From Armatimonadota bacterium (GTDB lineage Bacteria; Armatimonadota; Hebobacteria; CAIYQO01), in NCBI GenBank assembly GCA_020060775.1, contig JAGUZN010000220.1:984-64983 (forward strand): 64,000 bases of DNA, given 5' to 3'. The position numbers and the translations under genes were made by a program. Every line of letters starts with the position of its first letter. The first letter of the stretch is position 1. The notes beneath the pieces are model-generated. The model ran no database searches. It saw only the letters and a program-made list of their open reading frames with translations, and was not told the DNA's origin. Shown here piece after piece: positions 3,017 to 42,699 of this stretch.

Positions 3017-3314
3017 GTCTGCCTCCGTTGATGTGGAACACTCATCGCTCTTATAGCGACAGCTTGCCCTTATTTATCCGTAGGGGGACGTCAATATCAA
3101 TTACTCGCGCTCGAAGACACTGCTCTGCATATGGTTGAAGATAGGCACGAATCGGTCATTTAGCTAATCCGACAGGCACTATAAACGACGTATCCATTGA
3201 TATTGCGGAGTCTCACGAAATCATTGCTGGTTTTGGACCTTAGGCGTATACTTGCTCTGTTGGGCAAGTAGCGTTTGGGTGCAAGCCATAGTAATCGGCT
3301 AATGGCGCTATTCT

Positions 3315-4388: not shown

Positions 4389-4390
4389 TT

Positions 4391-5605: not shown

Positions 5606-6843
5606 CGACGTATTTGTCAGGAGTATATGCTCAGCAACTTAGTACCCTAGCGACACATATCGCTGATGATGCAGTGTGGCCATCTCCGTACGCCGGGTTT
5701 CTTTACTATCTGTGTAACAAATACGATCAGCAGTTTCTGGCACCTTTGATTAACCCTTCACCGCCATGTGTTGAGCTCGGGCGGCTTTACGAGGCACCGA
5801 TTCTTGCATCAGCAGGATATTTATTCGCGCTTAACCATCCTGTAGTTCGTGCAAGTTCCGAAGCTTGGCATATTGGGTTTCAACGGCTTGCTGGGCGCGA
5901 TCCCTTCCCAATTGACCGCCAGTCATTCGTATATCGTCCAATAGAACTGCTTGGTATTACACTTGGAGTGAAGCACTGCCCTAATACTACGCAGGCAGAG
6001 ATTGATTGGCTTATAAATGTGCTACAGAGTGCTGAAAGCCGGCTGAAGAGTGCGTCCTGTTGGCAGTACCTGCTTGGTATGTATGCTTCACGACTACTGG
6101 GTAATTCCTGGGCAAAGCGTTCCTGGGATATTGGGCAATTCCCTGTGGATGACTTGAGCATCGTGGTATGGCTGTGCGCCAATACTCCTGATTTAGCGTT
6201 TGAATTCGGTGTAGACCAATTATACAAGCAAGCAGAGGAATCATTACTGACCCAGTGTGCAAAAACGGAGGTTACCATCCCAGATCCCGCACGTGCTGCA
6301 ATACTCTACTCTAGTCTTGACCGAGCTGTGAGCCGGAGTATTGAATCAGAGCACGAGCGCAATTGGCAAATAGGCCGTGATCAAGCCGATGCCCTCTCAA
6401 TCGTTATCACGTTATGCCGTAGATTTGATTTGTGTGTAAGGCAACTCCAACGTAGGCAGCGAAGTCGCAATCCTTTCACTGTACAAGATGAGTATGATGT
6501 CCAAGACCTGATGCATGCTTTGTTGAAGTTACACTTTGATGATGTTCGTCCCGAGGAGTGGACACCGTCATATGCTGGCAACGCATCACGCGTCGATTTT
6601 TTGCTTAAACGAGAGATGATCGTTGTTGAGGTAAAGATGACTCGCGATAGCCTAGCTCAACGTGAGCTAGCGGACCAATTAATTATTGATAAAGAGCGGT
6701 ATCGATCACATTCTGACTGCCGTATACTGGTGTGTTTTGTTTATGATCCGGAGCATCGCTGCACGAACCCGGCAGCATTGGAGAATGACCTCAGCGAGCA
6801 GATCGGTCTATTTAGGGTTGAAGCAATCGTCTCACCTGCGTAG
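5602..6843 (+). CDS. Protein with a C-terminal PD-(D/E)xK nuclease-like domain (restriction-endonuclease fold); candidate effector of the short pAgo operon
   Basis: ATG at 5602 overlaps the pAgo stop TGA (5603-5605), i.e. ATGA coupling. C-terminal motif 'DEYDVQD...SRVDFLLKREMIVVEVKMTRD' has D-x11-E-V-K spacing. The N-terminal ~300 aa are of unknown function. Confidence 0.5.
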   Translation: MTTYLSGVYAQQLSTLATHIADDAVWPSPYAGFLYYLCNKYDQQFLAPLINPSPPCVELGRLYEAPILASAGYLFALNHPVVRASSEAWHIGFQRLAGRDPFPIDRQSFVYRPIELLGITLGVKHCPNTTQAEIDWLINVLQSAESRLKSASCWQYLLGMYASRLLGNSWAKRSWDIGQFPVDDLSIVVWLCANTPDLAFEFGVDQLYKQAEESLLTQCAKTEVTIPDPARAAILYSSLDRAVSRSIESEHERNWQIGRDQADALSIVITLCRRFDLCVRQLQRRQRSRNPFTVQDEYDVQDLMHALLKLHFDDVRPEEWTPSYAGNASRVDFLLKREMIVVEVKMTRDSLAQRELADQLIIDKERYRSHSDCRILVCFVYDPEHRCTNPAALENDLSEQIGLFRVEAIVSPA

Positions 6844-29174: not shown

Positions 29175-30008
29175 GTGCAACAAGCAGCGGGGAGATCAGC
29201 AGTGACCGAACATATCAACGCCAACATCGACCGCTTCAGCGGCTTTGCCGATTGCTATGACCGGTATCGCCCGCAGCCGCCGGCGGTGATTCCGGAGATC
29301 CTCGCGCAACTGCTGGGTGATCCGATGCCGACGCTGGTGGTCGACCTGGGCAGCGGCACGGGGCTCTCGACGCGCATCTGGGCCGGCAAGGCGCGGGAGG
29401 TGATCGGCATTGAGCCGAATGCTGACATGCGCCGGGTGGCGAAGGCGCAGACGCCGCCGGATGCCGGCATCCGGTACCAAAATGGCCTCTCGACGCAGAT
29501 GCACGTGCCGGATGCGAGCGCCGACATCATCTGCTGCTCGCAGGCCTTCCACTGGATGGCGCCGGAACCCACCCTCGCCGAAGTGGCGCGCGTGCTGCAT
29601 CCAGGTGGGGTATTCGCCGCCATCGACTGCGATTGGCCGCCGACGCTGCATTGGCAGGCGGAACAGGCTTATCGCGCCCTGATGCACCAGGTGGGCATGC
29701 TTGAGCACCAGCACGGCATCTACCACACGGTGAAGAAGTGGCCGAAAGATCGCCACCTCGCCAATATCCAGGCCAGCGGCCATTTCCGGTATACGAACGA
29801 AGTGATCGTTCATCATGTCGAGTCCGGCAATACCGACCGCCTCATCGGCCTGGCACTCAGTCAGGGAGGGGTAGAAGGCTTGCTGAAGCTTGGCCTGACA
29901 GAAGAGGAGATCGGCCTGACCGCCTTCCGCGCTACGGTGTATGCCTTGTTAGGCGACACCCCCTGTCCCTGGTATTTCGGGTACCGTGTGCGGTTAGGGG
30001 TGAGGTAG
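29175..30008 (+). CDS. Class I SAM-dependent methyltransferase
   Basis: 'LVVDLGSGTGLSTRIWAGKAREVIGIEPNADM' motif I; 'RVLHPGGVFAAI'. Confidence 0.65.
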   Translation: MQQAAGRSAVTEHINANIDRFSGFADCYDRYRPQPPAVIPEILAQLLGDPMPTLVVDLGSGTGLSTRIWAGKAREVIGIEPNADMRRVAKAQTPPDAGIRYQNGLSTQMHVPDASADIICCSQAFHWMAPEPTLAEVARVLHPGGVFAAIDCDWPPTLHWQAEQAYRALMHQVGMLEHQHGIYHTVKKWPKDRHLANIQASGHFRYTNEVIVHHVESGNTDRLIGLALSQGGVEGLLKLGLTEEEIGLTAFRATVYALLGDTPCPWYFGYRVRLGVR

Positions 30009-30301: not shown

Positions 30302-31093
30302 TTGCATATGAGAGTGTCAACTGCAAGTGAATATGTGCGCACACTCCTCCAACGTGGCCGCTATACCTTCAGCCGCGATGAAGCCGAAGCCGCGCTGGGG
30401 AGTCCGCGTGCGACGATGAAGGCGTTACACCGGCTCGAAAACCAGGGATGGCTGGTCTCACCGAGCCAGTGCTTCTACGTCATCCAGGACCCCCTGCATC
30501 AAGTTGCCGGGTTACCTGTCGAATGGTTCCTGGATGATTGGGCGCGACACCTCGGCGTGAAGTATTATGTCGGACTGCTCACCGCGGCGATGTATCATGG
30601 CGCCGCCCATCAAAAGCCGCAGCAGTTTCAGGTGATCGTCGACCGGCAACTCAGACCGGTGGTTCGCGGTCCGTATCATATTCACTTCTTTTATAAGAAG
30701 CGCATTGCTGATGCCGCCTGGGAGACGCGGCAGTCACCTGCCGGCTACTACCGGATCAGCACCCCGGAAATGACCGCCTACGATCTCCTGCGGTATCCGA
30801 AGGCGTGCCCGACCCGTGATATGGCGGCCACCATCCTTGCGGAACTCGGCGAGATGATCCTGGACGACCGTTTGGCAGATCTCCTGGAGCAGGAAGCAGA
30901 GATTGCCACCCTCCAACGGCTGGGGTGGATGCTGGATGCGGTCGGCTGGTCAGCGAAGACCGAGGCGTTGGCCAGTGCATTACACTCCCATCGTCGGCTC
31001 TGGCAACCCTTGCGGCCTGATCTTCCAGCCGATGGCCCTCGCGACCCACGCTGGCGCATCATCGTGAATGAAACGATTGAGGTTGAGATATGA
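30302..31093 (+). CDS. abiEi: AbiEi-family antitoxin / transcriptional regulator (type IV toxin-antitoxin)
   Basis: N-terminal wHTH-like region, ~260 aa, ATGA-coupled to a downstream AbiEii-type nucleotidyltransferase; family assignment rests on this pairing. Confidence 0.55.
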   Translation: MHMRVSTASEYVRTLLQRGRYTFSRDEAEAALGSPRATMKALHRLENQGWLVSPSQCFYVIQDPLHQVAGLPVEWFLDDWARHLGVKYYVGLLTAAMYHGAAHQKPQQFQVIVDRQLRPVVRGPYHIHFFYKKRIADAAWETRQSPAGYYRISTPEMTAYDLLRYPKACPTRDMAATILAELGEMILDDRLADLLEQEAEIATLQRLGWMLDAVGWSAKTEALASALHSHRRLWQPLRPDLPADGPRDPRWRIIVNETIEVEI

Positions 31094-31917
31094 TCCCCGA
31101 GGCATTTCTCGCCGAGTGGCGAGTCACCAGCGCACCATGGCAGCAACTGGCCATGGTCGAACAGGACCTGGTCATCAGCCGGGCACTCCTGAATATCTAC
31201 GACGATGACTACCTCCGGGACCGATTGGCCTTTCGTGGAGGGACCGCGCTCTACAAGCTCTACCTGGTGCCGCCGGCACGGTATTCCGAAGACATTGATC
31301 TGGTGCAAATCAACGCCGAGCCCATTCGCGAGACCGTCGTTCACCTGCAAGCGGCACTCGACCCCTGGCTGGGGCAGCCGCGGTATACCGCAACCGCACA
31401 ATCGGTCAAACTGCTCTATCGCTTCGCGGCAGAAGCGACGCCAGGTCTGCAGCAGCGCCTGAAGATCGAGATCAATACGCGGGAGCACCTTCCGGCATTT
31501 GGCTTGGTCAATAGACCGTTCACTGTGCAATCCCGATGGGTCGACGGCACGGTTATGATCCCCACTTATGCCATCGATGAACTACTGGGCACGAAGCTGC
31601 GCGCGCTCTATCAACGCAAGAAAGGCCGTGATCTCTTTGACGTGGATTATGCCATGCGGCAAGGGGAGGTCGATGGGCAACGGGTGCTCACAGCCTTCAT
31701 GCATTATGTGTCTCGGCAGGGATTGCGCATCACCACCGGGCAGTACCAGGCCAACCTGCGGGAGAAGATGACGGACCCCCGGTTCGGCGCCGACATTGCC
31801 CCACTGCTGCGTGATGGGATTGCCTTCTCACTCGATGAGGCATTAGCCCGAGTGGAGGAGCAGTTCCTGCGTCACCTTGACGCCGCCTGGTCACAGGTGG
31901 CGGAGCCTGTCCCGTAA
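31090..31917 (+). CDS. abiEii: AbiEii/AbiGii-family nucleotidyltransferase toxin
   Basis: 'AFRGGTALYKLY...RYSEDIDLV' NTase motif and 'LLGTKLRALYQRKKGRDLFD' characteristic of this family. Confidence 0.7.
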   Translation: MIPEAFLAEWRVTSAPWQQLAMVEQDLVISRALLNIYDDDYLRDRLAFRGGTALYKLYLVPPARYSEDIDLVQINAEPIRETVVHLQAALDPWLGQPRYTATAQSVKLLYRFAAEATPGLQQRLKIEINTREHLPAFGLVNRPFTVQSRWVDGTVMIPTYAIDELLGTKLRALYQRKKGRDLFDVDYAMRQGEVDGQRVLTAFMHYVSRQGLRITTGQYQANLREKMTDPRFGADIAPLLRDGIAFSLDEALARVEEQFLRHLDAAWSQVAEPVP

Positions 31918-31919
31918 GA

Positions 31920-32900
31920 TCAGCAGCCATGTTGTTGCTGGTAACAGCCACTTAACGGAAGCCAGCCATTAACACCACTGGGATCGAGCACGAAGGCGAC
32001 CGCGTCGGTGCTGGTAAATACCCAGAGCCACCAGCGCAATTTCGTCTTGTCGTTGAAGTGGAGCCACCACGTTTCATCCGCGTGCCAGTGGTCGGCCATA
32101 CGCAGATGGAGGAGGGTGGCATCATAGAGCGACGGAGCAGCGCGCCGACGGTGTCTTGCACCCTGAAGAGTGTGCTGGAGGCGAAGCGCACGCCGCAACA
32201 CAGGGTCAGTGCGTACAGTTAGCGGTAGACGGTTGGCCGTGGAGGAATTTGTTGACGACCAGGTGCGCAATGGCGCCGGTTCGGGATGAGTTTCGGCGGC
32301 GCAAGCGCGGGCAATTGCACCGTGGAGCCCGGCAGGTGGTACTTTCGCCGCATATGGATGACGCGCCGTATCCTGGCCTCCCCGTTTGAGGTTGGTGGCG
32401 TCTTTCGTGCCAGCGGTGGTGAGTAGTACTTCCCAAAGATGGGGCATTGGCGTGCCTCCTCGGGGAGGTTATGGAGCACCTCGCTGGGCGGCAACTATTG
32501 GTAGAGCCGACAGCCATGGCCGGGAGTGCCGTGCCGTTGCCCGCTCTGACCATGCGGCGCGTCGGTGGGCGCATCAGCCGACGGGATTGGCTGGAGTCGG
32601 GGGCGTCTGCGGCGGCACCGCGGAGGCTCTGCTCGGATTTTCGCCAAACAGCATCGTCTATTATTGCGGATGAGGGCATATTGCTTGGCGACCATCTCGC
32701 GCAAGGCGGCGTTGTCGGAGAGCAACTGTTCGACGGTCTCCTGCAGCGAGACGACGGTGGTCTCCAGCGTCTGGAGGCGCGCCAGCAGGGACGCGATGTC
32801 ATAGGCGGTGGGTGCAATGGACATTCCTCTCCAGATTCACGAGAGGAGAGACACAGTCCTTTCAGAGAAGGCACCTTTCAGAGAAGGCGCTTGACGTGCA
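31920..32900 (-). pseudogene. Degraded transposase remnant (IS66-family-like), frameshifted
   Basis: Overlapping minus-strand ORF pieces with 'DETWW...WWLWVF...AFVLDPS' and an N-terminal coiled-coil fragment; no single intact frame. Confidence 0.3.
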
Positions 32901-33086
32901 GGGGGGGGCAGTATTATGATGGTATCGGTGAACTCATCTGAAAGGGAAAGGGGTTCACCGAATACTTATCTTCACGAATTCACGGTCGACCTGTGTGGTG
33001 CGAAGGCTCATCTAGAATTCCCGTGATGCGACAACGTGCTCCTGCGTGGCAATATCCGCCTCACAGGTCTCGAGAACAGTTGGCGT

Positions 33087-33335
33087 TCACGGGCACTTGG
33101 GTAAGTGCGTAATCGGGTCGAATAGGACACGACCTTTCTTGCGTTGATACAAGGCGCGTAGTTTGCTCACAAGCAATTCTTCCAGTGAGAAGTTGATGAC
33201 GGAGACGTTATCCTGTACCCATCGCGAGTCGACGGCAAATGGTCTAGCAGCCTGTTGCACAACCACGGCCGATTTTCTGTCAACCGACAGAGCGCAAGCC
33301 GATGATTGCACTGAAATGGCTGTTAAGATGAACAT
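33087..33335 (-). pseudogene. Fragment of a second abiEii-like toxin gene
   Basis: Encodes 'EELLVSKLRALYQRKKGRVLFD', a near-identical match to 'DELLGTKLRALYQRKKGRDLFD' of the intact AbiEii at 31090-31917, but only ~80 codons and on the opposite strand. Confidence 0.5.
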
Positions 33336-33659
33336 CTCGGTTTGGTAAGGTTGGACCCTGTTACGTTATTGAGCTCGAATGCTTACCTGTAGACCAAGGG
33401 CACGTCCTTGCTCAACAGGCTGCTAGGCACCAGCACGGTCTGTTCAATATGCGCACGGGTAATCGTCCCCTTGGAGAAGTGACGGTATACCCATGCGCGC
33501 TTTTCATTCCCGCTCGGTCAGGTGAGTCACGGCGTCCAGCCGGCCCGGCACTATATGGGGGAGCCGAGCCTTATGGCTTATAATCGGTTGTGGACGTGGC
33601 AATGAGAATACGATCAGTACCGATACCACTATTTTGGGGGAAGGAAGGAATCCGCTGCT

Positions 33660-35342
33660 TTGCACCAAATACACTATTTGTGTGCCATCATGCCGATTAG
33701 GACTGATAATATGAGTTTGTCAACAAAAACTCCTCAAAATCCAGATCTGGCAAATCCTAGCAGTTGCCATTCCAGTTTAGGACCCCTTAGGCTGCCGCAG
33801 TCATTTTATGGCGATGCGTTCACGACGTTTCTATATGGAGCGGCGATATGCTGTATCGTTACGAAGGTCGATGCTGGTTATTCATGGTCTAATTTCGGTC
33901 TGTTGGCAATCATCTATATATTTTTTGATTGGGTTAGCAGAATTCTTTTACCATCATGTTTGCCCAATGACGACTTAGCTGTGAGAAATCGCATATACTT
34001 GAATGTGCTAAAAGCACTACTGGAAGCTGCAGGTTTATACTTGCTTACCGCTTTCCTTCTATCTGTTTTCACAACACCATTATACGGGTTATTTGCAGGA
34101 TTTTTGATCGTCAATTTATTGTGGAATTTGTTGTTGTTGTATATTATGGGTGGCCTTGGATGGAGGGACTTACAAGATGTTTGTTTTAAAGGTAATGGAA
34201 TGGATAACGAAGCTATAGCATTACATTCGTCGACCATTACGGAAATCGAAGCTCTAATAGAGAAGGCTGATATCTCTACTGACAATGCAAACACTAGTAG
34301 TCAAGTCATAAAAACGTATAATAATCACATAAAGCTTCGTAGTAGTATCAATTCAATAGGCGCAATCTACCGGATGCTCATACAATTGTTCGCATTTCAT
34401 GTTCGATATGGATATGTAGTTATTGTAATATTTGTTGCCAAGATGCTATTGGAGAGTACAACGAATACTTGGGGAAGTTTTCTGTTGAAAAAAACATATT
34501 TTTCTGTAGTGCTTGATTTCGCACAAGTCACAACAATGCACATAAGCATTTTTTGTGATAATGGCTATTTGGATGAGATATTTCTTACTGTATTAATATT
34601 AATACTTTGTGGTTTTGTTTTACGCTCTGTTAATATCAGTAATGTTTTTCAGAGTGATTGGTGGAAAAGTTACATTGCTAGTATTAAAGATAAAAACTAT
34701 GAAATGCTTGTCCCGTGGATGAAGATAATATGCAGTGTACCACTTTTCTTTGCTTGTTTGTACATATTATATATAATATGTTTTGTTGTATACACTTATT
34801 ACCCGCAGTTGTTCGCAGGTATTGATAGTGAAGGTGTAGGCATTGGCTTCCCAATCTTACTTTTTATTTATATTTTGTTGTTTTTCATACCTTTCTTATT
34901 TTTTAAATACGCACAACTTAATAAAATTATGAAAAAATCAATTGCTTCAAATGGAGATAACCATAAGAATCACGCCTCTATTTCTTGCTCATGCCCTCCT
35001 TCCAAAATCCAAGGAGAGGAGGAGAATAAAGCGATTGTCATTGAGAATTTACGATTTCAACAGGCTTGTAGAAATGGGTCATTATCACTTTATATCATTC
35101 TATTACTACTTTACTTCGCGTTGCCGATAAAAGACTTTGCAATATTTATTGCATTCCAGCAGGCCTGTGTTACGCTATTCCTATGTATCGCCGTATCTTG
35201 TCCACTTGAACAGAGAGATGAACCTATTGGCAACTTATGTCGAATGAACTCCCCGAGACCGACTTCGTGCCCTCCAAATATTAACGACGGGCTTGATGAT
35301 ACAACATCAGTGACGCCGAAAGAACAGGTAACAAGTTCATAG
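33660..35342 (+). CDS. Multi-pass integral membrane protein of unknown function (strongly AT-rich gene)
   Basis: 560-aa ORF with many hydrophobic segments; local GC content is far below the surrounding DNA. Confidence 0.5.
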   Translation: MHQIHYLCAIMPIRTDNMSLSTKTPQNPDLANPSSCHSSLGPLRLPQSFYGDAFTTFLYGAAICCIVTKVDAGYSWSNFGLLAIIYIFFDWVSRILLPSCLPNDDLAVRNRIYLNVLKALLEAAGLYLLTAFLLSVFTTPLYGLFAGFLIVNLLWNLLLLYIMGGLGWRDLQDVCFKGNGMDNEAIALHSSTITEIEALIEKADISTDNANTSSQVIKTYNNHIKLRSSINSIGAIYRMLIQLFAFHVRYGYVVIVIFVAKMLLESTTNTWGSFLLKKTYFSVVLDFAQVTTMHISIFCDNGYLDEIFLTVLILILCGFVLRSVNISNVFQSDWWKSYIASIKDKNYEMLVPWMKIICSVPLFFACLYILYIICFVVYTYYPQLFAGIDSEGVGIGFPILLFIYILLFFIPFLFFKYAQLNKIMKKSIASNGDNHKNHASISCSCPPSKIQGEEENKAIVIENLRFQQACRNGSLSLYIILLLLYFALPIKDFAIFIAFQQACVTLFLCIAVSCPLEQRDEPIGNLCRMNSPRPTSCPPNINDGLDDTTSVTPKEQVTSS

Positions 35343-35384
35343 TTAATGGTATATAAGTGATCATCAGATTGGAGTGACCAAGCG

Positions 35385-36842
35385 ATGTCTATGATTGATC
35401 TAGTCATAATAGGAGTTTATTTGATGGCGTTGTTCTGCTGGGCTATTTATATTGGCCTGCGAGAAAACGCCCAAGATTTTTTGGTTTTCTCGCGGCGTGC
35501 TCCTTTTGTGCTGGTATTGTTTTCTATTGTAGCTACCTGGGTTGGCGTTGGCACGACCGTAGTGACAGCGGCATCGGCATACGAATCCGGTATCTCACTA
35601 GGATTGATCGCCTGCCTTGGGGGCGTGTTGGGGTCTATCGGTGCCGCAATCTTTGCCCCTCGTCTGAAAGCGTTTGGAGACCGTTTCAACGCGCATACCA
35701 TCGGAGACTTCTTCCTGATCCGGTATTCAAACGGTGGACGCTTGATGGCTGGTGCACTGATAACAATCGTCTATTCACTGCTGACCGCCGCGCAACTCGT
35801 AGGGCTTGCAACGCTCTTGAAGGTTTGGACTGGGCTTCCTGTGGAGGTCGTCATCATTTTTGCTGCGTTTTCCACCGTAGCCTATACGGCGTTCGCTGGG
35901 ATCAAAAGCGATTTTTATACCGACATCATACATTTTATAGTTATGGCAATTGTTCTCTTTGTTATCCTATTGCCATTGACACTGGATAAAATTGGCGGAT
36001 TACATGGATTGCTGCGATTACCTCATACTTATTTCGATCCCTTCTCCTACGGAGGGCCAGCTCTATTCATCGCTGGAATGATCTTTGGCGCAGGCAGTGT
36101 TTTCGTGACCATGGAGCTTTGGCAACGCGTCTACGCATCAACAACCGGACGTGCCGCACGTATCTCGCTTGCAGTTGCCATCCTTCTTATCGTTCTCTTT
36201 TACGCGGTATCCACTGTGTTGGGTATGTCAGCAAAGCTACTATTACCGAATCTGCCGAATCGTGATTTTGCCTTGTTTGCGATGATGAAAGAGTATTTAC
36301 CTACAGGTATGCTGGGGCTAGGGATGTCAGGATTCATGGCGATTATTCTGTCTACCTTAAACTCAACACTGATGGTAACCTCTGCGACCTTCACCAAGGA
36401 TTTCTGGTGTGGAGCTCTTAATAAATCCGCTGATGACCAAAAGGCATTGTTATCTGTGGGCCGAATTTCTACATTTGTGAGCGGAGCTATTGGTCTGGGG
36501 ATTGCCTTGATACTACCTGATCTGGTTGCCTTAAGTGTCAATGGCATGTTCATGTTGCTGATCATCCTTCCAGCCATCGCTGGGGGATTCTTCTGGCGAC
36601 GTGCTACTGCCACGGCTGCAACGCTTTCCGTCTTCGCAGGAGCGCTTGTGACAGTGATTTTCTTGAAAATCGATGCTGGTATCGCGTTTGTGCCTGGTTT
36701 TCTCACAAGCCTTCTAGTTTTCGTTATTGGCTCTCTTGTCACTGAGCACTCTATAGAAGAAAATATTGGAGTTGTTTCTATGTGGCGAGGGAAAGCGGAA
36801 ATCCCGTCGATGCATGAAGGAGATGTTCATGACTTACGTTAA
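35385..36842 (+). CDS. Sodium:solute symporter family (SSS) transporter
   Basis: N-terminus 'LVIIGVYLMALFCWAIYIGL...DFLVFSRRAPFVLV...ATWVGVGTTV' typical of SSS/PutP-like permeases; ~13 TM segments. Confidence 0.65.
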   Translation: MSMIDLVIIGVYLMALFCWAIYIGLRENAQDFLVFSRRAPFVLVLFSIVATWVGVGTTVVTAASAYESGISLGLIACLGGVLGSIGAAIFAPRLKAFGDRFNAHTIGDFFLIRYSNGGRLMAGALITIVYSLLTAAQLVGLATLLKVWTGLPVEVVIIFAAFSTVAYTAFAGIKSDFYTDIIHFIVMAIVLFVILLPLTLDKIGGLHGLLRLPHTYFDPFSYGGPALFIAGMIFGAGSVFVTMELWQRVYASTTGRAARISLAVAILLIVLFYAVSTVLGMSAKLLLPNLPNRDFALFAMMKEYLPTGMLGLGMSGFMAIILSTLNSTLMVTSATFTKDFWCGALNKSADDQKALLSVGRISTFVSGAIGLGIALILPDLVALSVNGMFMLLIILPAIAGGFFWRRATATAATLSVFAGALVTVIFLKIDAGIAFVPGFLTSLLVFVIGSLVTEHSIEENIGVVSMWRGKAEIPSMHEGDVHDLR

Positions 36843-37932
36843 TACTGTGGAGCAAGTAAGCGATAAGCTGATGGCTGCTACCGATTCTGCGAATTGTTCT
36901 GCGATGTCAGCCTTACTCCACCAGGTGTGCCAATCGCTTCAAGAGTCTGACGCATCATTCTTGCGTCATTGGTATAATAGTCGGCTTACACGCGCCTGCG
37001 AAAACCCTATGCTTGGCGAAAAAGCCGTTACCATCTTCGCAGATTTGCTAGGAATTACCGTCGAGACGGCACAATGCGTTGAGAAGCCATGGATGCTTCT
37101 ATACATCCATGCACTCTTATTAGATGACATGATTGATTATATCCCTAGAGAAGAATCAAAAAAAGTTCAATCATTATGCAGCGCTTTCGATAGGGAACAC
37201 AATAAAGTATGTGAGCTGCTATTGAATGAAAATTTTGTGGTGTATTCACATCACCATCAGCGCTTCAATGCTGAAGCATGGGCAGCTATAACTTACGAGA
37301 TTGAATGGTCAAAAGGAACTAGATTCACATCACATAATGAAGCGCCACGTCAGCAAGGCCTCAAAGCCGCTCTCGCAAAGTCGTGTGCTACCATGCTTAT
37401 GCTTGCTGAACGTGGTATACCTCTTTCATCAGAACAGGAAGAGGGCATTATTACATTATGCGAAGGTATTCAACTTCTAGACGATTTTGCTGATATGACA
37501 GAAGATTATATGCAAGGACGTATGAATAGGTTGTTGAATACAACATATCGATGGATAAGGAGAAATCTGCCATGCATAGATATAGCTTATCTGGGCAAAT
37601 ACCAGCTACTCGTCTCTGCGATTCTTTCTTCTGCGATTACCTGCACATGGATTGATGCGGCAAATCGATATGAGCAGACATTGCAGATATTTAAACCCTC
37701 TAGTGAGTGCTGGACTGCTCAATATTTTTTGCAACAATCAGTGGAATGTCGACTATGCAGCACTGCATTAACTGATTTACTCACGCAAAATCGTTGCCTG
37801 TTGGATCAACTCATCACAGCTCTGAGTGTGAACGAAGAAGAATTAGCGTGTAAGTTAACAACCGGATGCCTAGCCGGTTTATGGCAAGATATTCGCTATA
37901 TTATTGGGACAGGACCAAAAGCAAGTAATTGA
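36829..37932 (+). CDS. Isoprenoid synthase fold protein (polyprenyl synthetase / class I terpene synthase-like) with two Asp-rich motifs
   Basis: 'HALLLDDMIDY' (DDxxD) and ~125 aa later 'GIQLLDDFADMTED' (second DDxxD preceded by a G..Q-like context). Start placed at ATG 36829, overlapping the symporter stop. Confidence 0.4.
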   Translation: MTYVNTVEQVSDKLMAATDSANCSAMSALLHQVCQSLQESDASFLRHWYNSRLTRACENPMLGEKAVTIFADLLGITVETAQCVEKPWMLLYIHALLLDDMIDYIPREESKKVQSLCSAFDREHNKVCELLLNENFVVYSHHHQRFNAEAWAAITYEIEWSKGTRFTSHNEAPRQQGLKAALAKSCATMLMLAERGIPLSSEQEEGIITLCEGIQLLDDFADMTEDYMQGRMNRLLNTTYRWIRRNLPCIDIAYLGKYQLLVSAILSSAITCTWIDAANRYEQTLQIFKPSSECWTAQYFLQQSVECRLCSTALTDLLTQNRCLLDQLITALSVNEEELACKLTTGCLAGLWQDIRYIIGTGPKASN

Positions 37933-38321
37933 CCGTGGGCAATTCCATCATCGCCTGGGCAATATAGACACTTTTTTCTGAATTAGGTGACAGTATGGGC
38001 AAACTGAAGTGTTCTCAGGAGGCGCGTTTTTTCTTCCGGCATTTTGCCCGGCGTCGTCGCATCTCCTCATAATCGGGTAACGCGTATGCCGGTTCTTCCC
38101 CCTGTGCCCTGGCAGCTTTAGCGACTTGGCACCTGAGTACCCCACGTGCGAAGATATCGACGAGTTCCGCCAGGCGGGCCTCGGGGGTCATCTTGGTCGG
38201 GTCGATGGTGGTATTGAACATGGGACACACCCCTTTCATGAACGTATGACGGACAATACCTCAACATCGGCTGACATGGGAAGGGGATGGCGGAAGATTG
38301 TTTTTGAGGATAACGTAGGAT

Positions 38322-39686
38322 ATTTTTCGCACTTTCACCGAGGGGTTGCGGTGTAGCCCTTTCGCTGAGTAGAGTGTAAGCGCCAACTTACCATACTCAC
38401 GAAAGGGACTACACACGATGAACACTACGACAATCACTGGTGAGAGTCAAGCCCAAGCCGGGCTGGTGACGATCAATGAGGGGGAGCTGCGGGCGCATCT
38501 CGACCAGATCGTCACCGGCGCGGTGGAAGAGACGCTGAACCAATTGCTTGACGCGGAAGCGGAGGCGTTGTGCCAGGCGCGACGCTATGAGCGGACGGCG
38601 ACGCGGCAAGATACGCGGGCCGGGCATTACGCGCGTAAGCTCCAGACGCGGGCGGGCGAGGTGACGCTGAAGGTGCCGAAACTGCGGCAGCTGACCTTTG
38701 AGACGGCGATCATCGAGCGCTACCAGCGCCGGGAAGCCTCGGTGGAAGAGGCGCTGATCGAGATGTACCTCGCCGGGGTGAGCGTCCGGCGGGTGGAAGA
38801 CATCACCGAGGCGCTGTGGGGCACGAAGGTGAGCGCCTCGACGGTGAGTGACTTGAATCAGAAGCTCTACCTGCGCCTGGACGACTGGTTGGCCCGTCCG
38901 TTGACCGGGGACTTTGCCTACGTCTATCTGGACGGGCTCTGGCTGAAGAAGAGTTGGGGCGGCGAGGTGCAGACGGTCTCGGTGCTGGTGGCGGTGGGGG
39001 TGAGCGCCGACGGCTACCGGGAGATCCTGGGAGTCGCCGAAGGCATGAAGGAGGATACCGCAAGTTGGCGGGACTTCCTGCGGGGGATGAGGGCGCGGGG
39101 ATTGCAGGGTATCCGGCTGGTGGTCTCCGATTGCTGCCTGGGGCTGGTGGAGGCGCTGGGCGAGGTCTTCCCCGAGGCTGCTTGGCAGCGGTGCGTGGTG
39201 CACTTCTACCGCAATGTGCTGGGACAGGTGCCGCGGGGTAAGAGCCGGGAGGTGGCGACGATGCTGAAGGCGATTCATGCCCAGGAGGATCGCACGGCTG
39301 CCCTGCAGAAAGCAGAGGATGTCGCCGGGAAACTCCGGGGGCTGAAGCTGGAGAAGGCGGCCAAGGTGCTCCAAGCGGGCATCGCCGATACGCTGGCGTA
39401 CTATGCCTTCCCGAGTGAGCACTGGCGGAGTCTGCGTACGAATAATCCGTTGGAACGACTGAATCGAGAGATCCGTCGGCGGACCCGCGTGGTGGGCTGT
39501 TTCCCCGATGGCCGCTCGGCGGTGATGCTGGTGACCGCGCGCCTGCGGTATCTGGCCAGTAAAGACTGGGGGACCAAGCGGTATTTGAACATGCAACGCC
39601 TCTGGGACGCGGCGCCTTCCGGGGAGGAGGGCGCGTAGCGCGGAGGACAATCAGGCGCTCATACTCTACAAAAAGTGCGAAAAACT
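38322..39686 (+). mobile_element. IS256-family insertion sequence (about 1.36 kb) with imperfect terminal inverted repeats
   Basis: Left end 'TTTTTCGCACTTT' (38324-38336) versus right end 'AAAGTGCGAAAAAC' (39673-39686), inner 'GAGTAGAGTGTAAGCGCC' / 'GGCGCTCATACTCTAC'; contains an intact mutator-type transposase. Confidence 0.65.
38418..39638 (+). CDS. IS256-family (mutator-type) transposase
   Basis: 406 aa; 'IEMYLAGVSVRRVEDITEALWG...YVYLDGLWLK...REVFPEAAWQRCVVHFYRNVL' is characteristic of Transposase_mut. Confidence 0.85.
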   Translation: MNTTTITGESQAQAGLVTINEGELRAHLDQIVTGAVEETLNQLLDAEAEALCQARRYERTATRQDTRAGHYARKLQTRAGEVTLKVPKLRQLTFETAIIERYQRREASVEEALIEMYLAGVSVRRVEDITEALWGTKVSASTVSDLNQKLYLRLDDWLARPLTGDFAYVYLDGLWLKKSWGGEVQTVSVLVAVGVSADGYREILGVAEGMKEDTASWRDFLRGMRARGLQGIRLVVSDCCLGLVEALGEVFPEAAWQRCVVHFYRNVLGQVPRGKSREVATMLKAIHAQEDRTAALQKAEDVAGKLRGLKLEKAAKVLQAGIADTLAYYAFPSEHWRSLRTNNPLERLNREIRRRTRVVGCFPDGRSAVMLVTARLRYLASKDWGTKRYLNMQRLWDAAPSGEEGA

Positions 39687-39916
39687 CTGGACACTACCTT
39701 TTTGAGGTGGTTTTCGCTGGTCGTGGGGGAGGGGGGAACGGAAATATAACCGAGAGAGGAACATGGCAAAGAACATGTACGGTAAACCCGGAACTGACCG
39801 CCAAAAGAGGAACAATTTTATACTCAGCGGCTTGATGTGTTAATCGGCGTTTCGGGGTTAGGCCCCTGCGGAGCCACACCCCTTTCGCCAGCCAACTGCT
39901 TATAGCATTAGGTTAA

Positions 39917-40242: not shown

Positions 40243-41010
40243 ATGGGATGGAAGCGAAAGTATAATGATCTTATCGTGAAATCACCTACCTTGTTGAGGT
40301 ATTATGCTTCATCGAAGGGTATATCAATGTCACCAACTATTGGGCATCATTCAGAATTACCGCTTACGACCGAGCAAGTATTAGCGCTGACGCGCATAGT
40401 GTTTCTCGATCCAGTCGACCCTGTGCCGTGCGACTTGATTTTCATTTTCGGTGGAACGCATCCTGGGGCGTGGGAGGCAGGAGCCGAAGCTTACTTTAAC
40501 GGATTAGGGCAGCAAATCTTTGTGGTTGGCGGTATTCCCCGAAATCCGAAAGCACCGCATGTTTCCTGGACGGGCGAGGACCGCTTCGTCCCTAATTGCC
40601 GGCGAATTGCGACTAATCTGATTCGCCTTGGTGTCCCAGAACATGTCATCAGTTGCGACGAGCGTCCATTGAATTCCTACGAAGAGGCAATGTGCCTCCG
40701 TGCATTCATTGGTACTCACCCGGAAATCGTCAGTGTGCTCTTTATCTCAAAAGGCTGGGGAATCGGTCGGCAATTTCGTACGTTACACCACAACCTGCCT
40801 GGTGACATTGTATTGGTGCCATACCCCTTTGAAACTAACCTTGGTGAGGGTGAAGCTGTCACACGGGAAAATTGGGCTGACAGCCCACAGGGTAGAGCGA
40901 TGGTTATTGCAGAATACAACCGCATACTAACTTATGGAAAACAGGGCGGTCTCACACCGTTGGCGTCTCCGGTTGTTGGGTTAGAAGACATAAGACTATC
41001 GCATCTGTAG
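40243..41010 (+). CDS. DUF218 (YdcF/SanA/ElyC-like) domain protein
   Basis: 'DLIFIFGGTHPGAWEAGAEAYFNGLGQQIFVVGGIP' resembles the DUF218 core; moderate-GC gene. Confidence 0.45.
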   Translation: MGWKRKYNDLIVKSPTLLRYYASSKGISMSPTIGHHSELPLTTEQVLALTRIVFLDPVDPVPCDLIFIFGGTHPGAWEAGAEAYFNGLGQQIFVVGGIPRNPKAPHVSWTGEDRFVPNCRRIATNLIRLGVPEHVISCDERPLNSYEEAMCLRAFIGTHPEIVSVLFISKGWGIGRQFRTLHHNLPGDIVLVPYPFETNLGEGEAVTRENWADSPQGRAMVIAEYNRILTYGKQGGLTPLASPVVGLEDIRLSHL

Positions 41011-41657
41011 ATACACCCCAATTCCGTACAGGTTAGATGGTGATAGAATGGTACAAGCTTGATACCTGATGCGATATGTTGCCACTGCTGCCGTTGCATT
41101 GCCCAGTCTGGGATCATGGCAATCCGTCGCAACTCCTTTTCGCTCATCGGGTCTTTCCCGTGCTGCATCGGTAGCTCTGTCAGTTGCTCCTGAATCTCCG
41201 GTGCCAGGAATTTCAGCGTGAGAATCTGCGCGACCCGTGCTCGCGACATCTGTGCCAGCCGGGCGATCTCCGCATAGTCCTTTACGGCGCCTTGCGCGAT
41301 CAAGTCATCAAAGTGATGCGCCAGCGCCAGCACGCGCGCTACGCGGGGTATGCGTCCGACGGGCTGGGGCTTCTCGCCTTGTCGCAATACCTTCCGTCCC
41401 TTTGCTTGTGTGGCGAAATGCACAGTGTATTCCATGCGGAGTGGGGTCTCGGTGCTCATAGCTTATGCCTCCTCAATGTGTTGTGCGGCCAGTTGTTGGG
41501 CGCTGGTCATCTCATCGTATAATGCGGCGATGCCGGTGGGGCGGAAGGTGATGCCGATCTTCCCGGTGCTCGCGGTGAAGTCGATCTGCTCAATGAGCAA
41601 ACGCAGGATGCGTGCGCGCTCGACGCGGTAGAGGACATCCCAGACCGGATCGAACAA
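40932..41657 (-). pseudogene. Hypothetical HTH-containing DNA-binding protein, apparently split by an in-frame stop into 64-aa and 175-aa pieces
   Basis: Two consecutive minus-strand ORFs (41657-41463, 41459-40932) separated by a single stop; 'RIPRVARVLALAHHFDDLIAQGAVKDYAEIARLAQMSRARVAQIL' is HTH-like; a repeat array lies immediately upstream. Confidence 0.3.
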
Positions 41658-41907: not shown

Positions 41908-42699
41908 TTGGCCGTGACCGAATCTATTCACACCATGAGGAGATTTCCCGAAATGGACATTCCCCGGATCTTCAATATCACTGAAAGCGCTCACCGCATC
42001 CATAACCCGTTTACACCCGACAAGCTCGCTAGGCTCGGCGAGGCGCTGCGTCTGGAAAGGGGGACCCGCGTGCTCGACCTCGGCAGCGGTTCGGGGGAGA
42101 TGCTGTGCACCTGGGCACGTGATCACGGAGTCATCGGCACCGGCATCGACATGAGCCAATTGTTCACGGAGCACGCGAAAATCCGCGCTAAAGAACTCGG
42201 CGTCGCCGATCAAGTCCAGTTCATCCATGACGATGCTGCCGGCTACGTCGCCGACGAAAAGGTCGATGTGGCAGCCTGTGTCGGCGCCACGTGGATCGGC
42301 GGTGGAGTCCCCGGCACGATCGAGCTGCTGGCACAGAGCCTCAGCACCGGAGGGATCATCCTCATCGGCGAGCCCTACTGGCGGCAGTTACCGCCGACGG
42401 ACGATGTTGTCAAAGGGTGTCATGCCCATTCAATCTCCGACTATCTCATACTGCCTGAACTACTCGCGTCGTTCGGCCGCCTTGGCTATGATGTCGTGGA
42501 AATGGTGCTGGCTGACCAGGATGCCTGGGACAGATACGAGGCGGCCAAATGGCTCACCATGCGCCGATGGCTTGATGCCAATCCCGACGATGAGCTCGCG
42601 AACGATGTCCGAGTCCAACTGACCTCGGAACCTGAGCGCTACGCCACGTACACGCGTGAATATATGGGCTGGGGCGTGTTCGCACTGATGGCGCGGTGA
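41908..42699 (+). CDS. Class I SAM-dependent methyltransferase
   Basis: 'RVLDLGSGSGEMLCTWARDHGVIGTGIDMS' motif I. Confidence 0.6.
   Translation: MAVTESIHTMRRFPEMDIPRIFNITESAHRIHNPFTPDKLARLGEALRLERGTRVLDLGSGSGEMLCTWARDHGVIGTGIDMSQLFTEHAKIRAKELGVADQVQFIHDDAAGYVADEKVDVAACVGATWIGGGVPGTIELLAQSLSTGGIILIGEPYWRQLPPTDDVVKGCHAHSISDYLILPELLASFGRLGYDVVEMVLADQDAWDRYEAAKWLTMRRWLDANPDDELANDVRVQLTSEPERYATYTREYMGWGVFALMAR

What the first reader, a model, noticed from the sequence alone, without database searches (positions are those of the whole stretch)
33340..37932. Strongly AT-rich three-gene insert encoding a multi-TM protein, a sodium:solute symporter and an isoprenoid-synthase-like protein with two DDxxD motifs
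The segment's base composition is drastically different from its surroundings, indicating recent acquisition from a low-GC donor. It is flanked by an abiEii fragment and IS66 debris on the left and an intact IS256 on the right. The third protein carries 'LLLDDMIDY' and ~125 residues later 'QLLDDFADMTED', the spacing of FARM/SARM motifs in polyprenyl synthases and terpene cyclases. Together with a membrane protein and a transporter, this could be a small terpenoid or prenylated-metabolite module.
Basis: partly seen in the sequence, partly recalled or inferred. Interest (0 to 1): 0.55.

Follow-up and report, generated by a model that had tools for sequence, protein, structure and literature searches.

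The report
Mobile membrane–symporter–isoprenoid-synthase gene triad
A foreign, AT-rich three-gene operon sits here, made of an unknown membrane protein, a sodium-coupled transporter and a new kind of isoprenoid-synthase-fold enzyme; the same trio recurs on mobile DNA and next to anti-phage genes in unrelated bacteria, and its product and role are unknown.

Summary
Window 33340-37932 has 43.0% GC against 58.4% for the rest, the lowest of any 4.6-kb stretch. It carries three intact, tightly packed + strand genes:
- A, 33711-35342: polytopic membrane protein with no known family.
- B, 35385-36842: SSF symporter.
- C, 36829-37932: 367 aa.

B-C adjacency was found in 15 of 15 independent loci from several phyla, and A lies upstream wherever the sequence reaches. 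Some loci add a small-molecule methyltransferase, a canonical FPP/GGPP-type synthase or a B12 radical-SAM enzyme. Neighbours are recombinases, conjugation ATPases and known or candidate defence genes.

Best reading: a mobile module that makes or modifies a prenylated or terpenoid compound from an imported solute. A role as a new defence system is not excluded.

The parts
33600..37990 (+). Low-GC foreign insert (approximate borders) carrying the A-B-C operon
   Evidence: The 100-bp GC profile drops from about 0.60 to 0.44 at about 33,600 and rises again at about 38,000. GC of 33340-37932 is 0.430 against 0.584 for the rest of the window. No flanking direct or inverted repeat of 10 nt or more was found between the two borders.
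33711..35342 (+). Gene A: 543-aa polytopic membrane protein of an undescribed family
   Evidence: It has about 10 hydrophobic segments. It has no Pfam, NCBIfam, PADLOC or PDB-sequence match. Homologues lie upstream of B-C in 9 or more loci. The invariant residues are D73, W74, R77, P81, P85, K101, E105, W138, H230, Y468, Q483 and Q484. The single-sequence AlphaFold model is unusable (pLDDT 47).
35385..36842 (+). Gene B: sodium:solute symporter family transporter of a distinct, highly conserved clade
   Evidence: PF00474 at E=4.9e-25, 88.7 bits against a 22.8-bit cut-off. All NCBIfam equivalogs (PanF, PutP and others) score far below their cut-offs. B proteins are 56-78% identical among triad loci and 30% of alignment columns are invariant. 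Plasmid-borne SSF genes are at most 30% identical. The best solved relatives are CHT1 and DUR3.
36829..37932 (+). Gene C: 367-aa class-I isoprenoid-synthase-fold protein of a new family. It overlaps the end of B by 14 nt.
37114..37140 (+). First Asp-rich motif, LLLDDMIDY (D99, D100, D103)
   Evidence: It is invariant in the 6-sequence alignment and at least 90% conserved in the 37-sequence alignment. It lies at the C-terminal end of helix 78-103. It aligns with FARM of 4lob.
37357..37386 (+). GLKAALAKSC segment containing conserved K179
   Evidence: K179 is at least 90% conserved. It aligns with the GKTS lysine region of 4lob.
37471..37506 (+). Second Asp-rich motif, QLLDDFADMTED (Q215, D218, D219, D222, E225, D226)
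   Evidence: D222 and D226 are the only fully invariant residues in 37 family members. 119 of 133 full-length representatives keep DDxxDxx[ED]D. The motif lies within helix 201-228 and aligns with SARM of 4lob.
37912..37929 (+). Conserved extreme C-terminus, GPKASN
   Evidence: The terminal N is invariant in A1. Family tails cluster as ...KASN or ...AQSS. Their function is unknown.
30302..31917 (+). AbiEi/AbiEii toxin-antitoxin (abortive-infection) pair on the left flank
   Evidence: PF09407 and PF13338 match 30302-31093. PF08843 matches 31090-31917.
31920..32447 (-). IS66-type transposase fragment
   Evidence: PF03050 at E=9.5e-4, below the gathering score. Only positions 55-113 of the 284-position profile are matched.
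33087..33335 (-). Inverted abiEii gene fragment next to the insert
   Evidence: Inverted repeat 31576-31641 / 33117-33182, 66 nt, 73%. The ORF translation shares LRALYQRKKGR.LFD with AbiEii.
38310..39698 (+). IS256-family insertion sequence (transposase at 38418-39638) with a 9-bp target duplication, TTTTTGAGG, at 38301-38309 and 39699-39707
   Evidence: PF00872 at E=1.2e-114. Terminal repeats containing TTTTTCGCACTTT and the flanking direct repeat were read from the sequence.

Best explanation
The segment is a horizontally acquired, intact three-gene operon. It belongs to a rare module that moves between distant bacterial lineages.

Gene C encodes a soluble, Mg2+-dependent enzyme with the trans-isoprenyl diphosphate synthase fold.
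- Its two Asp-rich motifs and a conserved Lys would bind and ionise a prenyl diphosphate from the host pool (FPP or GGPP class).
- It lacks the basic elements that canonical synthases use to hold IPP and elongate chains.
- It most likely transfers the prenyl group to a non-IPP acceptor, or rearranges or cyclises it.

Gene B, a Na+-coupled symporter of a very conserved dedicated clade, most likely imports the polar co-substrate or precursor.

Gene A, a polytopic membrane protein with conserved charged residues in its helices, most likely handles, modifies or anchors the lipophilic product in the membrane.

In some lineages the product is further methylated, or the module is fed by its own FPP/GGPP-type synthase.

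Shown here: the composition, gene integrity, fold, motif conservation, synteny, accessory genes and neighbourhoods.

Inferred: the substrate, the reaction type, the roles of A and B, and the biological purpose. The genomic company suggests a purpose related to inter-organism or host-parasite conflict.
For: Fold and motifs.
- All top Foldseek hits are trans-IDS, with TM 0.58/0.69.
- The family profile matches polyprenyl synthetase 4lob at E=3.6e-4, with FARM, the Lys region and SARM in register.
- 7 of 37 relatives hit PF00348 on their own, with a best E-value of 1.7e-6.
- D222 and D226 are invariant. D99, D100, D103, K179, Q215, D218 and D219 are at least 90% conserved.
- 119 of 133 representatives keep DDxxDxx[ED]D, with a median motif spacing of 117 residues.

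Not an elongating synthase.
- The RRGRPT segment after FARM and the GK loop after SARM are gaps in the profile alignment.
- Only 8 of 133 members have RR after motif 1.

The three genes are a unit.
- B-C adjacency holds in 15 of 15 independent loci, and A lies upstream wherever sequence is available.
- Gaps between the genes run from -38 to +63 nt.
- Pairwise scores of A, B and C are correlated (rho 0.58-0.71).

Isoprenoid-type accessories.
- L012 reads CMAS/GPPMT-like methyltransferase, A, B, C, PF00348 protein.
- L016 reads GPP 2-C-methyltransferase-like methyltransferase (E=1.4e-22, well below that model's cut-off), A, B, C.
- L006 reads A, B, C, SAM methyltransferase.
- L017 has an FPPS/GGPPS-like fragment downstream.
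- L008 has a B12 radical-SAM methylase-like gene directly upstream.

Transporter. B keeps the standard SSF sequence blocks and is 56-78% identical across loci.
Against: - No biochemical evidence exists, and no product or substrate can be named.
- The accessory methyltransferase or synthase genes occur in only about 5 of 15 loci, and none is in this window.
- Methyltransferase hits lie far below the family cut-offs, and sarcosine/dimethylglycine N-methyltransferase scores about as well as GPP methyltransferase.
- A and C evolve much faster (20-41% and 28-56% identity) than B (56-78%). That is unusual for a biosynthetic enzyme paired with its transporter and fits conflict systems better.
- SSF proteins are importers, and an obligatory importer is atypical for terpenoid clusters.
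- Neighbours are dominated by defence and mobile-element genes, not biosynthetic ones.
- The role of A is entirely unknown.
Confidence: 0.5

Rival explanations
1. The triad is a new anti-phage or anti-mobile-element defence system. On infection, the isoprenoid-synthase-fold protein would either deplete an essential prenyl diphosphate pool or generate a toxic or signalling isoprenoid. The symporter and the polytopic protein would act as membrane effectors or sensors, in the manner of abortive infection. This can overlap with the best explanation, as a form of chemical defence.
For: Known or candidate defence genes lie within a few genes of the triad in most informative loci.
- This window has AbiEi/AbiEii adjacent and a short pAgo locus about 27 kb away.
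- L009 has PDC-S06 (E=5e-205) plus Vsr and a cytosine methylase.
- L013 has Ppl (7e-53).
- L014 has PDC-S01 (1.5e-55).
- L003 and L008 have mad8/HerA-like ATPases (about 1e-22).
- L012 has an E1/BilD-like protein.
- L001 has a GmrSD_C-domain protein.
- L008 has a WYL/WCX regulator.

Other features that fit:
- Distribution is patchy across several lineages, and in three loci the triad has lower GC than its surroundings.
- A and C diverge fast while B is strongly conserved.
Against: - No hit of A, B or C to any of 5027 PADLOC models at E<=1.
- No defence system built on an isoprenoid synthase or an SSF transporter turned up in four full-text searches.
- Mobile islands also carry non-defence cargo, so adjacency is only guilt by association, from about 10 informative loci and with no statistical control.
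- Small-molecule methyltransferases and FPP/GGPP-type synthases as accessories point to metabolism.
- There is no nuclease, NTPase, protease or other usual defence domain in the triad.
Confidence: 0.25
2. C is an ordinary chain-elongating polyprenyl diphosphate synthase that supplies a quinone side chain or a lipid carrier, and the reader's motifs are just FARM and SARM.
For: The fold and both Asp motifs match long-chain trans-IDS best.
Against: - C has no PF00348 or NCBIfam IDS hit, even at E<=1 or E<=0.1.
- The RRG element after FARM and the GK loop after SARM are missing.
- The second motif is extended to DDxxDxxED, as in squalene/phytoene synthases and class IB terpene synthases.
- L012 and L017 carry a separate PF00348 gene next to C.
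- C is always paired with a symporter and an unknown membrane protein on mobile DNA.
Confidence: 0.07
3. The operon is a plain solute-uptake system. C would be a non-catalytic accessory or regulatory subunit that merely keeps an old fold.
For: B is by far the most conserved of the three. No substrate for C can be named.
Against: The metal-binding Asp residues and Lys179 are under strong purifying selection across a family with 591 cluster representatives, although overall identity is only about 20-30%. This is the signature of a retained active site.
Confidence: 0.08
4. The three genes are a chance juxtaposition, or decaying debris in a junkyard of insertion sequences.
For: The surrounding region is a mosaic of IS and toxin-antitoxin fragments.
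Against: All three ORFs are intact and full length relative to their homologues. The same gene order recurs in 15 independent loci, with translational-coupling-like spacing.
Confidence: 0.02

Closest known systems
Trans-isoprenyl diphosphate synthases (polyprenyl synthetase, PF00348), for example octaprenyl, decaprenyl, solanesyl and GGPP synthases
   Same: - DDxxD on the helix equivalent to helix D.
- QxxDDxxD on the helix equivalent to helix H.
- A conserved Lys between the two motifs.
- Motif spacing of about 117-119 residues.
   Different: - No significant PF00348 match for this protein.
- It lacks the RRG element after the first motif and the GK loop after the second.
- The second motif is extended to DDxxDxxED.
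- It has extra N- and C-terminal helices and a conserved C-terminal tail.
- It is always encoded with a symporter and an unknown membrane protein.
Non-elongating enzymes built on the IDS fold (MoeN5, Ord1, CqsB4/LvqB4) and non-canonical class I terpene synthases (class IB BalTS / tetraprenyl-beta-curcumene synthase)
   Same: - These are IDS or class-I folds used for prenyl transfer to non-IPP acceptors or for cyclisation.
- CqsB4 and LvqB4 appear as weak profile hits.
- The class IB second motif DY[FLW]IDxxED has the same acidic spacing (i, i+4, i+7, i+8) as DDFADMTED (PMC11234867).
   Different: - There is no detectable sequence relationship beyond the motifs.
- The first motif here is a plain DDxxD, not DYLDNLxD.
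- None of those enzymes is known, to my knowledge, to be tied to an SSF transporter.
Squalene/phytoene synthase family (PF00494; HpnC)
   Same: The second motif contains DxxED. The QLxDxxxDxxED spacing resembles the Q..N...D..ED of this family, a comparison made from my own recollection of those sequences. 8 of 37 family members weakly hit HpnC, with a best E-value of 2.3e-4.
Small bacterial non-canonical terpenoid clusters (prenyl diphosphate C-methyltransferase + IDS + terpene synthase, as for 2-methylisoborneol or sodorifen)
   Same: Some triad loci combine a GPP-methyltransferase-like or CMAS-like methyltransferase and an FPPS/GGPPS-like gene with the class-I-fold enzyme.
   Different: The constant core here is the membrane protein plus the symporter plus the enzyme. 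The methyltransferase and IDS are optional, and both are absent from this window.
Defence-island cargo and PADLOC candidate systems
   Same: The genomic setting is the same: beside AbiE, PDC-S06, Ppl, PDC-S01, MADS-like HerA ATPases, recombinases and IS elements.
   Different: No component matches any PADLOC model. No defence phenotype is known.

Membership tests
Polyprenyl synthetase / trans-IDS (PF00348) | All-alpha isoprenoid synthase fold closest to solved trans-IDS structures | tested here: met
   [not shown]
Polyprenyl synthetase / trans-IDS (PF00348) | First and second Asp-rich motifs (DDx2-4D and DDxxD) on two facing helices | tested here: met
   D99, D100 and D103 lie at the end of helix 78-103. 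D218, D219 and D222 lie in helix 201-228. They align with FARM and SARM of 4lob. Whether they face the cavity was not inspected in coordinates.
Polyprenyl synthetase / trans-IDS (PF00348) | Sequence match to the family model at or above the curated cut-off | tested here: not met
   PF00348 did not hit this protein at E<=1. No NCBIfam IDS model hit at E<=0.1. Only 7 of 37 relatives hit weakly.
Polyprenyl synthetase / trans-IDS (PF00348) | IPP/diphosphate-binding basic elements (RRG after FARM; GK-containing loop after SARM) | tested here: not met
   Both segments are deletions in the profile alignment to 4lob. RR occurs within 20 residues after motif 1 in only 8 of 133 family members.
Polyprenyl synthetase / trans-IDS (PF00348) | Head-to-tail condensation of IPP with an allylic diphosphate | not testable with these tools
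   This needs an enzyme assay.
Class I terpene synthases/cyclases (PF03936, PF19086) | DDxxD plus an NSE/DTE triad, and a family-model match | tested here: inconclusive
   [not shown]
Squalene/phytoene synthase (PF00494) | Two DxxED-type motifs and a family-model match | tested here: not met
   Only the second motif contains DxxED. PF00494 is hit by 1 of 37 relatives (E=0.0062). HpnC is hit by 8 of 37 (best E=2.3e-4), far below its cut-off.
Sodium:solute symporter family (PF00474), gene B | Family-model match above the cut-off over nearly the full length | tested here: met
   88.7 bits against a 22.8-bit cut-off; residues 44-419 match profile positions 13-406 of 406.
Named SSF equivalogs (PanF, PutP, MctC and others), gene B | Score at or above the NCBIfam equivalog cut-off, which would assign a substrate | tested here: not met
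   PanF scores 90 against 328, PutP 58 against 515, and the sss superfamily model 110 against 184. The substrate therefore remains unassigned.
Known or candidate anti-phage defence systems (PADLOC-DB 2.0) | A match of any component to a defence-system model | tested here: not met
   No hit at E<=1 for A, B or C of the window, or for three A homologues. Only neighbouring genes match.
IS256 family (right-flank element) | Mutator-type DDE transposase, terminal inverted repeats and an 8-9 bp target duplication | tested here: met
   PF00872 at E=1.2e-114. Imperfect terminal repeats and a 9-bp TTTTTGAGG duplication are present.

The most novel reading that the evidence does not exclude
The A-B-C triad is a previously unrecognised class of mobile bacterial immunity or conflict system. 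Its core would be an isoprenoid-synthase-fold enzyme working with a dedicated Na+ symporter and a novel membrane protein. On infection it would either make a protective or toxic prenylated compound from an imported solute, or collapse the prenyl diphosphate or membrane economy of the cell.
Probability: 0.25. Interest if true: 0.85.

Novelty: new variant of a known kind. Interest (0 to 1): 0.6.

Why it matters
If the reading is right, three things follow.

1. It defines a sizeable enzyme family that has gone unannotated. There are 591 cluster representatives at 50% identity, and neither this protein nor its close relatives have a Pfam or NCBIfam model. The family lies inside the class I isoprenoid synthase superfamily and keeps the metal-binding machinery, but it has lost the chain-elongation elements. 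It is therefore a likely source of new prenyl-transfer or terpene chemistry that sequence-based genome mining misses.

2. It links that enzyme obligatorily to a dedicated Na+-coupled importer and a novel polytopic membrane protein. I found no description of this architecture for isoprenoid enzymes.

3. The module travels on mobile DNA and sits among defence genes in several phyla. It is thus a concrete and cheaply testable candidate for either a new chemical-defence system or a new mobile metabolic trait.

Tried and rejected
Direct annotation of C.
- Pfam, NCBIfam, PADLOC and PDB sequence searches with the single protein or the 6-sequence profile found nothing.
- Only the 37-sequence profile and the structure model revealed the fold.

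Gene A.
- The word-index homologue search returned only the protein itself.
- Pfam and PDB profile searches found nothing.
- The single-sequence model was too poor to search with (pLDDT 47).

Wider sampling.
- Genome and metagenome scans gave only 2 loci each.
- The viral-contig scan gave none.
- tblastn of C and of two distant relatives against plasmids, and of C against phages, gave no match. blastn of the whole insert against plasmids also gave none.
- The afdb50 structure library was unavailable.
- The window's own contig could not be retrieved by protein look-up, so the host organism stays unidentified. The window has no tRNA genes.

Regulation.
- There is no riboswitch or other Rfam family in 32800-38400 or in 12 related loci.
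- Promoter and terminator scans were not above the shuffled expectation.

Insert borders. No direct or inverted repeat flanks the low-GC insert.

Literature. Four full-text searches found no description of this gene combination. A fifth led to the paper on non-canonical terpene synthases used for the motif comparison.

Ideas rejected.
- The IS256 element is not the border of the insert, because it has its own target duplication.
- The two high-GC methyltransferase genes in the window (29175-30008 and 41908-42699) are not counted as part of the module. They have host-like GC3 and are separated from the triad by mobile-element debris.

Full report
**1. The observation**

The composition anomaly is real.
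- Window 33340-37932 has 43.0% GC, against 58.4% for the rest of the window.
- It is the minimum among all 4.6-kb windows (mean 57.3%, sd 4.9).
- Third-codon-position GC is 0.34, 0.48 and 0.375 for the three genes. The neighbouring AbiE, methyltransferase and IS256 genes have 0.67-0.82.
- At 100-bp resolution the drop begins near 33,600 and ends near 37,990.

Three intact + strand ORFs fill the segment.
- A, 33711-35342: 543 aa from the ATG that both public annotations use. It has about ten hydrophobic segments.
- B, 35385-36842: 485 aa.
- C, 36829-37932: 367 aa from the ATG that aligns with the N-termini of its homologues. It overlaps B by 14 nt.

**2. The flanks**

To the left:
- an intact AbiEi/AbiEii pair at 30302-31917;
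- a weak IS66 transposase fragment at 31920-32447(-), below the Pfam cut-off;
- an inverted 66-nt copy, 73% identical, of part of abiEii at 33117-33182.

To the right lies an IS256-family element with an intact Mutator-type transposase (E=1.2e-114).
- I located its ends at 38310 and 39698.
- It has a 9-bp target duplication, TTTTTGAGG.
- It is therefore a separate insertion, 377 bp of high-GC DNA downstream of C, and not the border of the low-GC insert.
- No repeat flanks the insert itself.

**3. What gene C is**

Searches with C alone or with a small profile found nothing.
- It matches no Pfam, NCBIfam or PADLOC model.
- It matches no PDB sequence, either alone or as a 6-sequence profile.
- The word-indexed search of 5.8 billion proteins found only five relatives.
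- An exhaustive HMM search found 591 cluster representatives at E<=1e-3, of which 91 are at E<=1e-30.

Deeper searches revealed the fold.
- The AlphaFold2 model built on the small alignment is confident (pLDDT 80.4, pTM 0.81) and all-alpha.
- Non-canonical prenyltransferases on the same fold come next (Ord1 at 15.7, MoeN5 at 15.6). Class I terpene cyclases score about 12-13.
- Foldseek gives the same ranking.
- A profile of 37 family members hits polyprenyl synthetase 4lob at E=3.6e-4. The first Asp motif aligns on FARM, the GxK segment on the GKT lysine region, and the second motif on SARM.
- 7 of the 37 members hit PF00348 on their own.

The motifs lie in long helices 78-103 and 201-228.

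**4. How C differs from a canonical synthase**

- In the profile alignment, the segment after FARM that carries RRG is a deletion. So is the GK-containing loop after SARM.
- Only 8 of 133 full-length family members have RR after motif 1.
- From established knowledge of FPP synthase-type enzymes, these elements bind the diphosphates of IPP and of the allylic substrate. Ordinary chain elongation is therefore unlikely.
- The second motif is DDxxDxxED in 119 of 133 members. D222 and D226 are the only residues invariant in all 37 aligned members.
- This gives acidic residues at i, i+4, i+7 and i+8. The class IB terpene synthase motif DY[FLW]IDxxED, described in PMC11234867, has the same spacing. 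So does the DxxED motif of squalene/phytoene synthases.
- Consistent with that, 8 of 37 members weakly hit HpnC.
- The extreme C-terminus is conserved, as ...PKASN or ...AQSS.

I read C as a member of a new family of the class I isoprenoid synthase superfamily. It has an intact diphosphate-ionising metal site, but probably a non-elongating reaction.

**5. The three genes are a conserved unit**

- I retrieved or scanned for loci encoding relatives of C. B-C adjacency holds in 15 of 15 independent loci.
- A homologue of A lies upstream wherever the contig reaches far enough.
- The loci are the window, L001, L003, L004, L005, L006, L007/L014, L008, L009, L012, L013, L016, L017, L018 and L019.
- The named source genomes are a Desulfobulbaceae MAG, a Candidatus Sumerlaeota MAG and a Bacteroidales MAG chromosome.
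- An all-against-all comparison of every ORF in these loci found only A, B and C shared by nine or more loci.
- Intergenic gaps run from -38 to +63 nt.
- B is strikingly conserved: 56-78% identity, with 30% of columns invariant among 12 sequences. C is 28-56% identical and A is 20-41%.
- Pairwise scores of the three genes are correlated (rho 0.58-0.71), as expected for a co-inherited unit.
- B is a bona fide SSF member, but it falls far below every substrate-specific NCBIfam cut-off.
- B is at most 30% identical to any plasmid-borne SSF gene.
- A has no detectable relatives in Pfam or the PDB. Its invariant polar residues are D73, W74, R77, K101, E105, H230, Q483 and Q484. From their positions relative to the hydrophobic segments, I read them as lying in or beside transmembrane helices.

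**6. Accessory genes and neighbourhoods**

Five loci add enzymes that fit isoprenoid metabolism.
- L012 has a CMAS/GPP-methyltransferase-like methyltransferase upstream and a PF00348 protein downstream.
- L016 has a methyltransferase whose best NCBIfam hit is geranyl diphosphate 2-C-methyltransferase, at 1.4e-22 and well below the cut-off.
- L006 has a SAM methyltransferase downstream.
- L017 has an FPPS/GGPPS-like fragment downstream.
- L008 has a B12 radical-SAM methylase-like gene directly upstream.

The wider neighbourhoods are mobile-element and defence-island-like. They contain:
- resolvases and serine recombinases, an integrase, ParB, and TraG/TrwB/DUF87 ATPases;
- PADLOC matches: PDC-S06 (5e-205), Ppl (7e-53), PDC-S01 (1.5e-55), mad8/HerA-like (about 1e-22) and E1/BilD-like;
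- Vsr with a cytosine methylase, GmrSD, WYL, and HTH-M78 pairs.

In this window the triad lies beside AbiE. A short pAgo locus lies 27 kb away.

A, B and C themselves match no PADLOC model. No relative was found in phage, plasmid or viral-contig collections. No riboswitch was found that would hint at a ligand.

**7. Interpretation**

The best-supported mechanism is a mobile module built around a prenyl-diphosphate-ionising enzyme.
- C uses host FPP- or GGPP-class substrates and transfers the prenyl group to a non-IPP acceptor, or rearranges it.
- B imports the polar partner with Na+.
- A handles the lipophilic product in the membrane.
- Methylation, or a dedicated short-chain synthase, is an optional extra.

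The steps shown are the fold, the conserved metal site, the loss of the elongation elements, the synteny and the accessory genes. Substrate, product and the roles of A and B are inferred. I give this a confidence of 0.5.

The main rival, which partly overlaps, is a new defence or conflict system (0.25). The defence-island company and the fast evolution of A and C beside a conserved B favour it. The absence of any known defence domain, and the metabolic character of the accessory genes, count against it.

An ordinary chain-elongating synthase (0.07), a plain uptake operon with a non-catalytic C (0.08) and chance juxtaposition (0.02) are poorly supported.

**8. Novelty and verdict**

- Four full-text searches found no description of this gene combination.
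- The enzyme belongs to a known superfamily, so I rate the finding a new variant of a known kind.
- The family itself, its obligatory partnership with a dedicated symporter and a novel membrane protein, and its mobile, defence-island lifestyle are all undescribed.
- Interest is 0.6.

Noticed in passing
window 107-6843: A lower-GC (about 0.48-0.50) block encodes four proteins. They are a 969-aa protein with a C-terminal ADP-ribosylglycohydrolase domain (107-3016), a 357-aa protein with no family (3315-4388), a short Piwi-domain Argonaute (4391-5605), and a 430-aa protein with a C-terminal DpnII/MboI-type restriction endonuclease domain (5551-6843). This looks like a short-pAgo defence locus with a nuclease partner.
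   Followed up: partly
window 38301-39707: The IS256-family element (38310-39698) is flanked by a perfect 9-bp direct repeat, TTTTTGAGG. It is therefore a clean, probably recent insertion into high-GC DNA, independent of the low-GC insert.
   Followed up: yes
window 38015-38239 (-), 40243-41010 (+), 40932-41657 (-): Around the IS256 element lie a small high-GC ORF (74 aa), a 255-aa ORF of intermediate GC (0.50) with no Pfam or NCBIfam family, and a 175-aa ORF also without a family. A 64-aa ORF (41463-41657, minus strand) was not scanned. By eye, the 175-aa and 64-aa ORFs resemble ParB-type helix-turn-helix and recombinase C-terminal fragments. They may be further mobile-element debris.
   Followed up: partly
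L003 66-3475; L008 11176-14716; L012 3922-5130: A conserved pair adjoins the triad in L003 and L008: a small protein of 166-183 aa plus a HerA/TrwB-like ATPase of 950-1000 aa that matches PADLOC mad8 at about 1e-22. L012 has a related 402-aa TraG-D_C-type protein. This hints at a shared carrier element or a functional partner.
   Followed up: partly
A, B and C across 9 loci (window, L001, L003, L004, L006, L007, L008, L012, L016): The symporter B is far more conserved (56-78% identity) than the enzyme C (28-56%) or the membrane protein A (20-41%). This holds across genomes whose GC ranges from 0.31 to 0.59. None of my explanations fully accounts for the asymmetry.
   Followed up: partly
L012 11219-12196: The PF00348 protein next to the triad in L012 is itself atypical. 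It has LLVDDLIDDD as its first motif, but YQLYNDYYDW where SARM should be. It may be a second non-canonical isoprenoid enzyme and not a plain substrate supplier.
   Followed up: no
L006 12301-12463 (-): A group II intron D1-D4 fragment, just above the Rfam gathering score, lies immediately downstream of the triad-plus-methyltransferase unit in the Bacteroidales chromosome. An HTH-M78 gene and an integrase fragment are nearby.
   Followed up: no
window 29175-30008 and 41908-42699: Two SAM-dependent small-molecule-type methyltransferase genes lie within 8 kb of the triad. The second has a weak CMAS match. Both have host-like GC3 (0.78 and 0.71) and are separated from the triad by mobile-element debris, so I treated their presence as coincidental.
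   Followed up: partly
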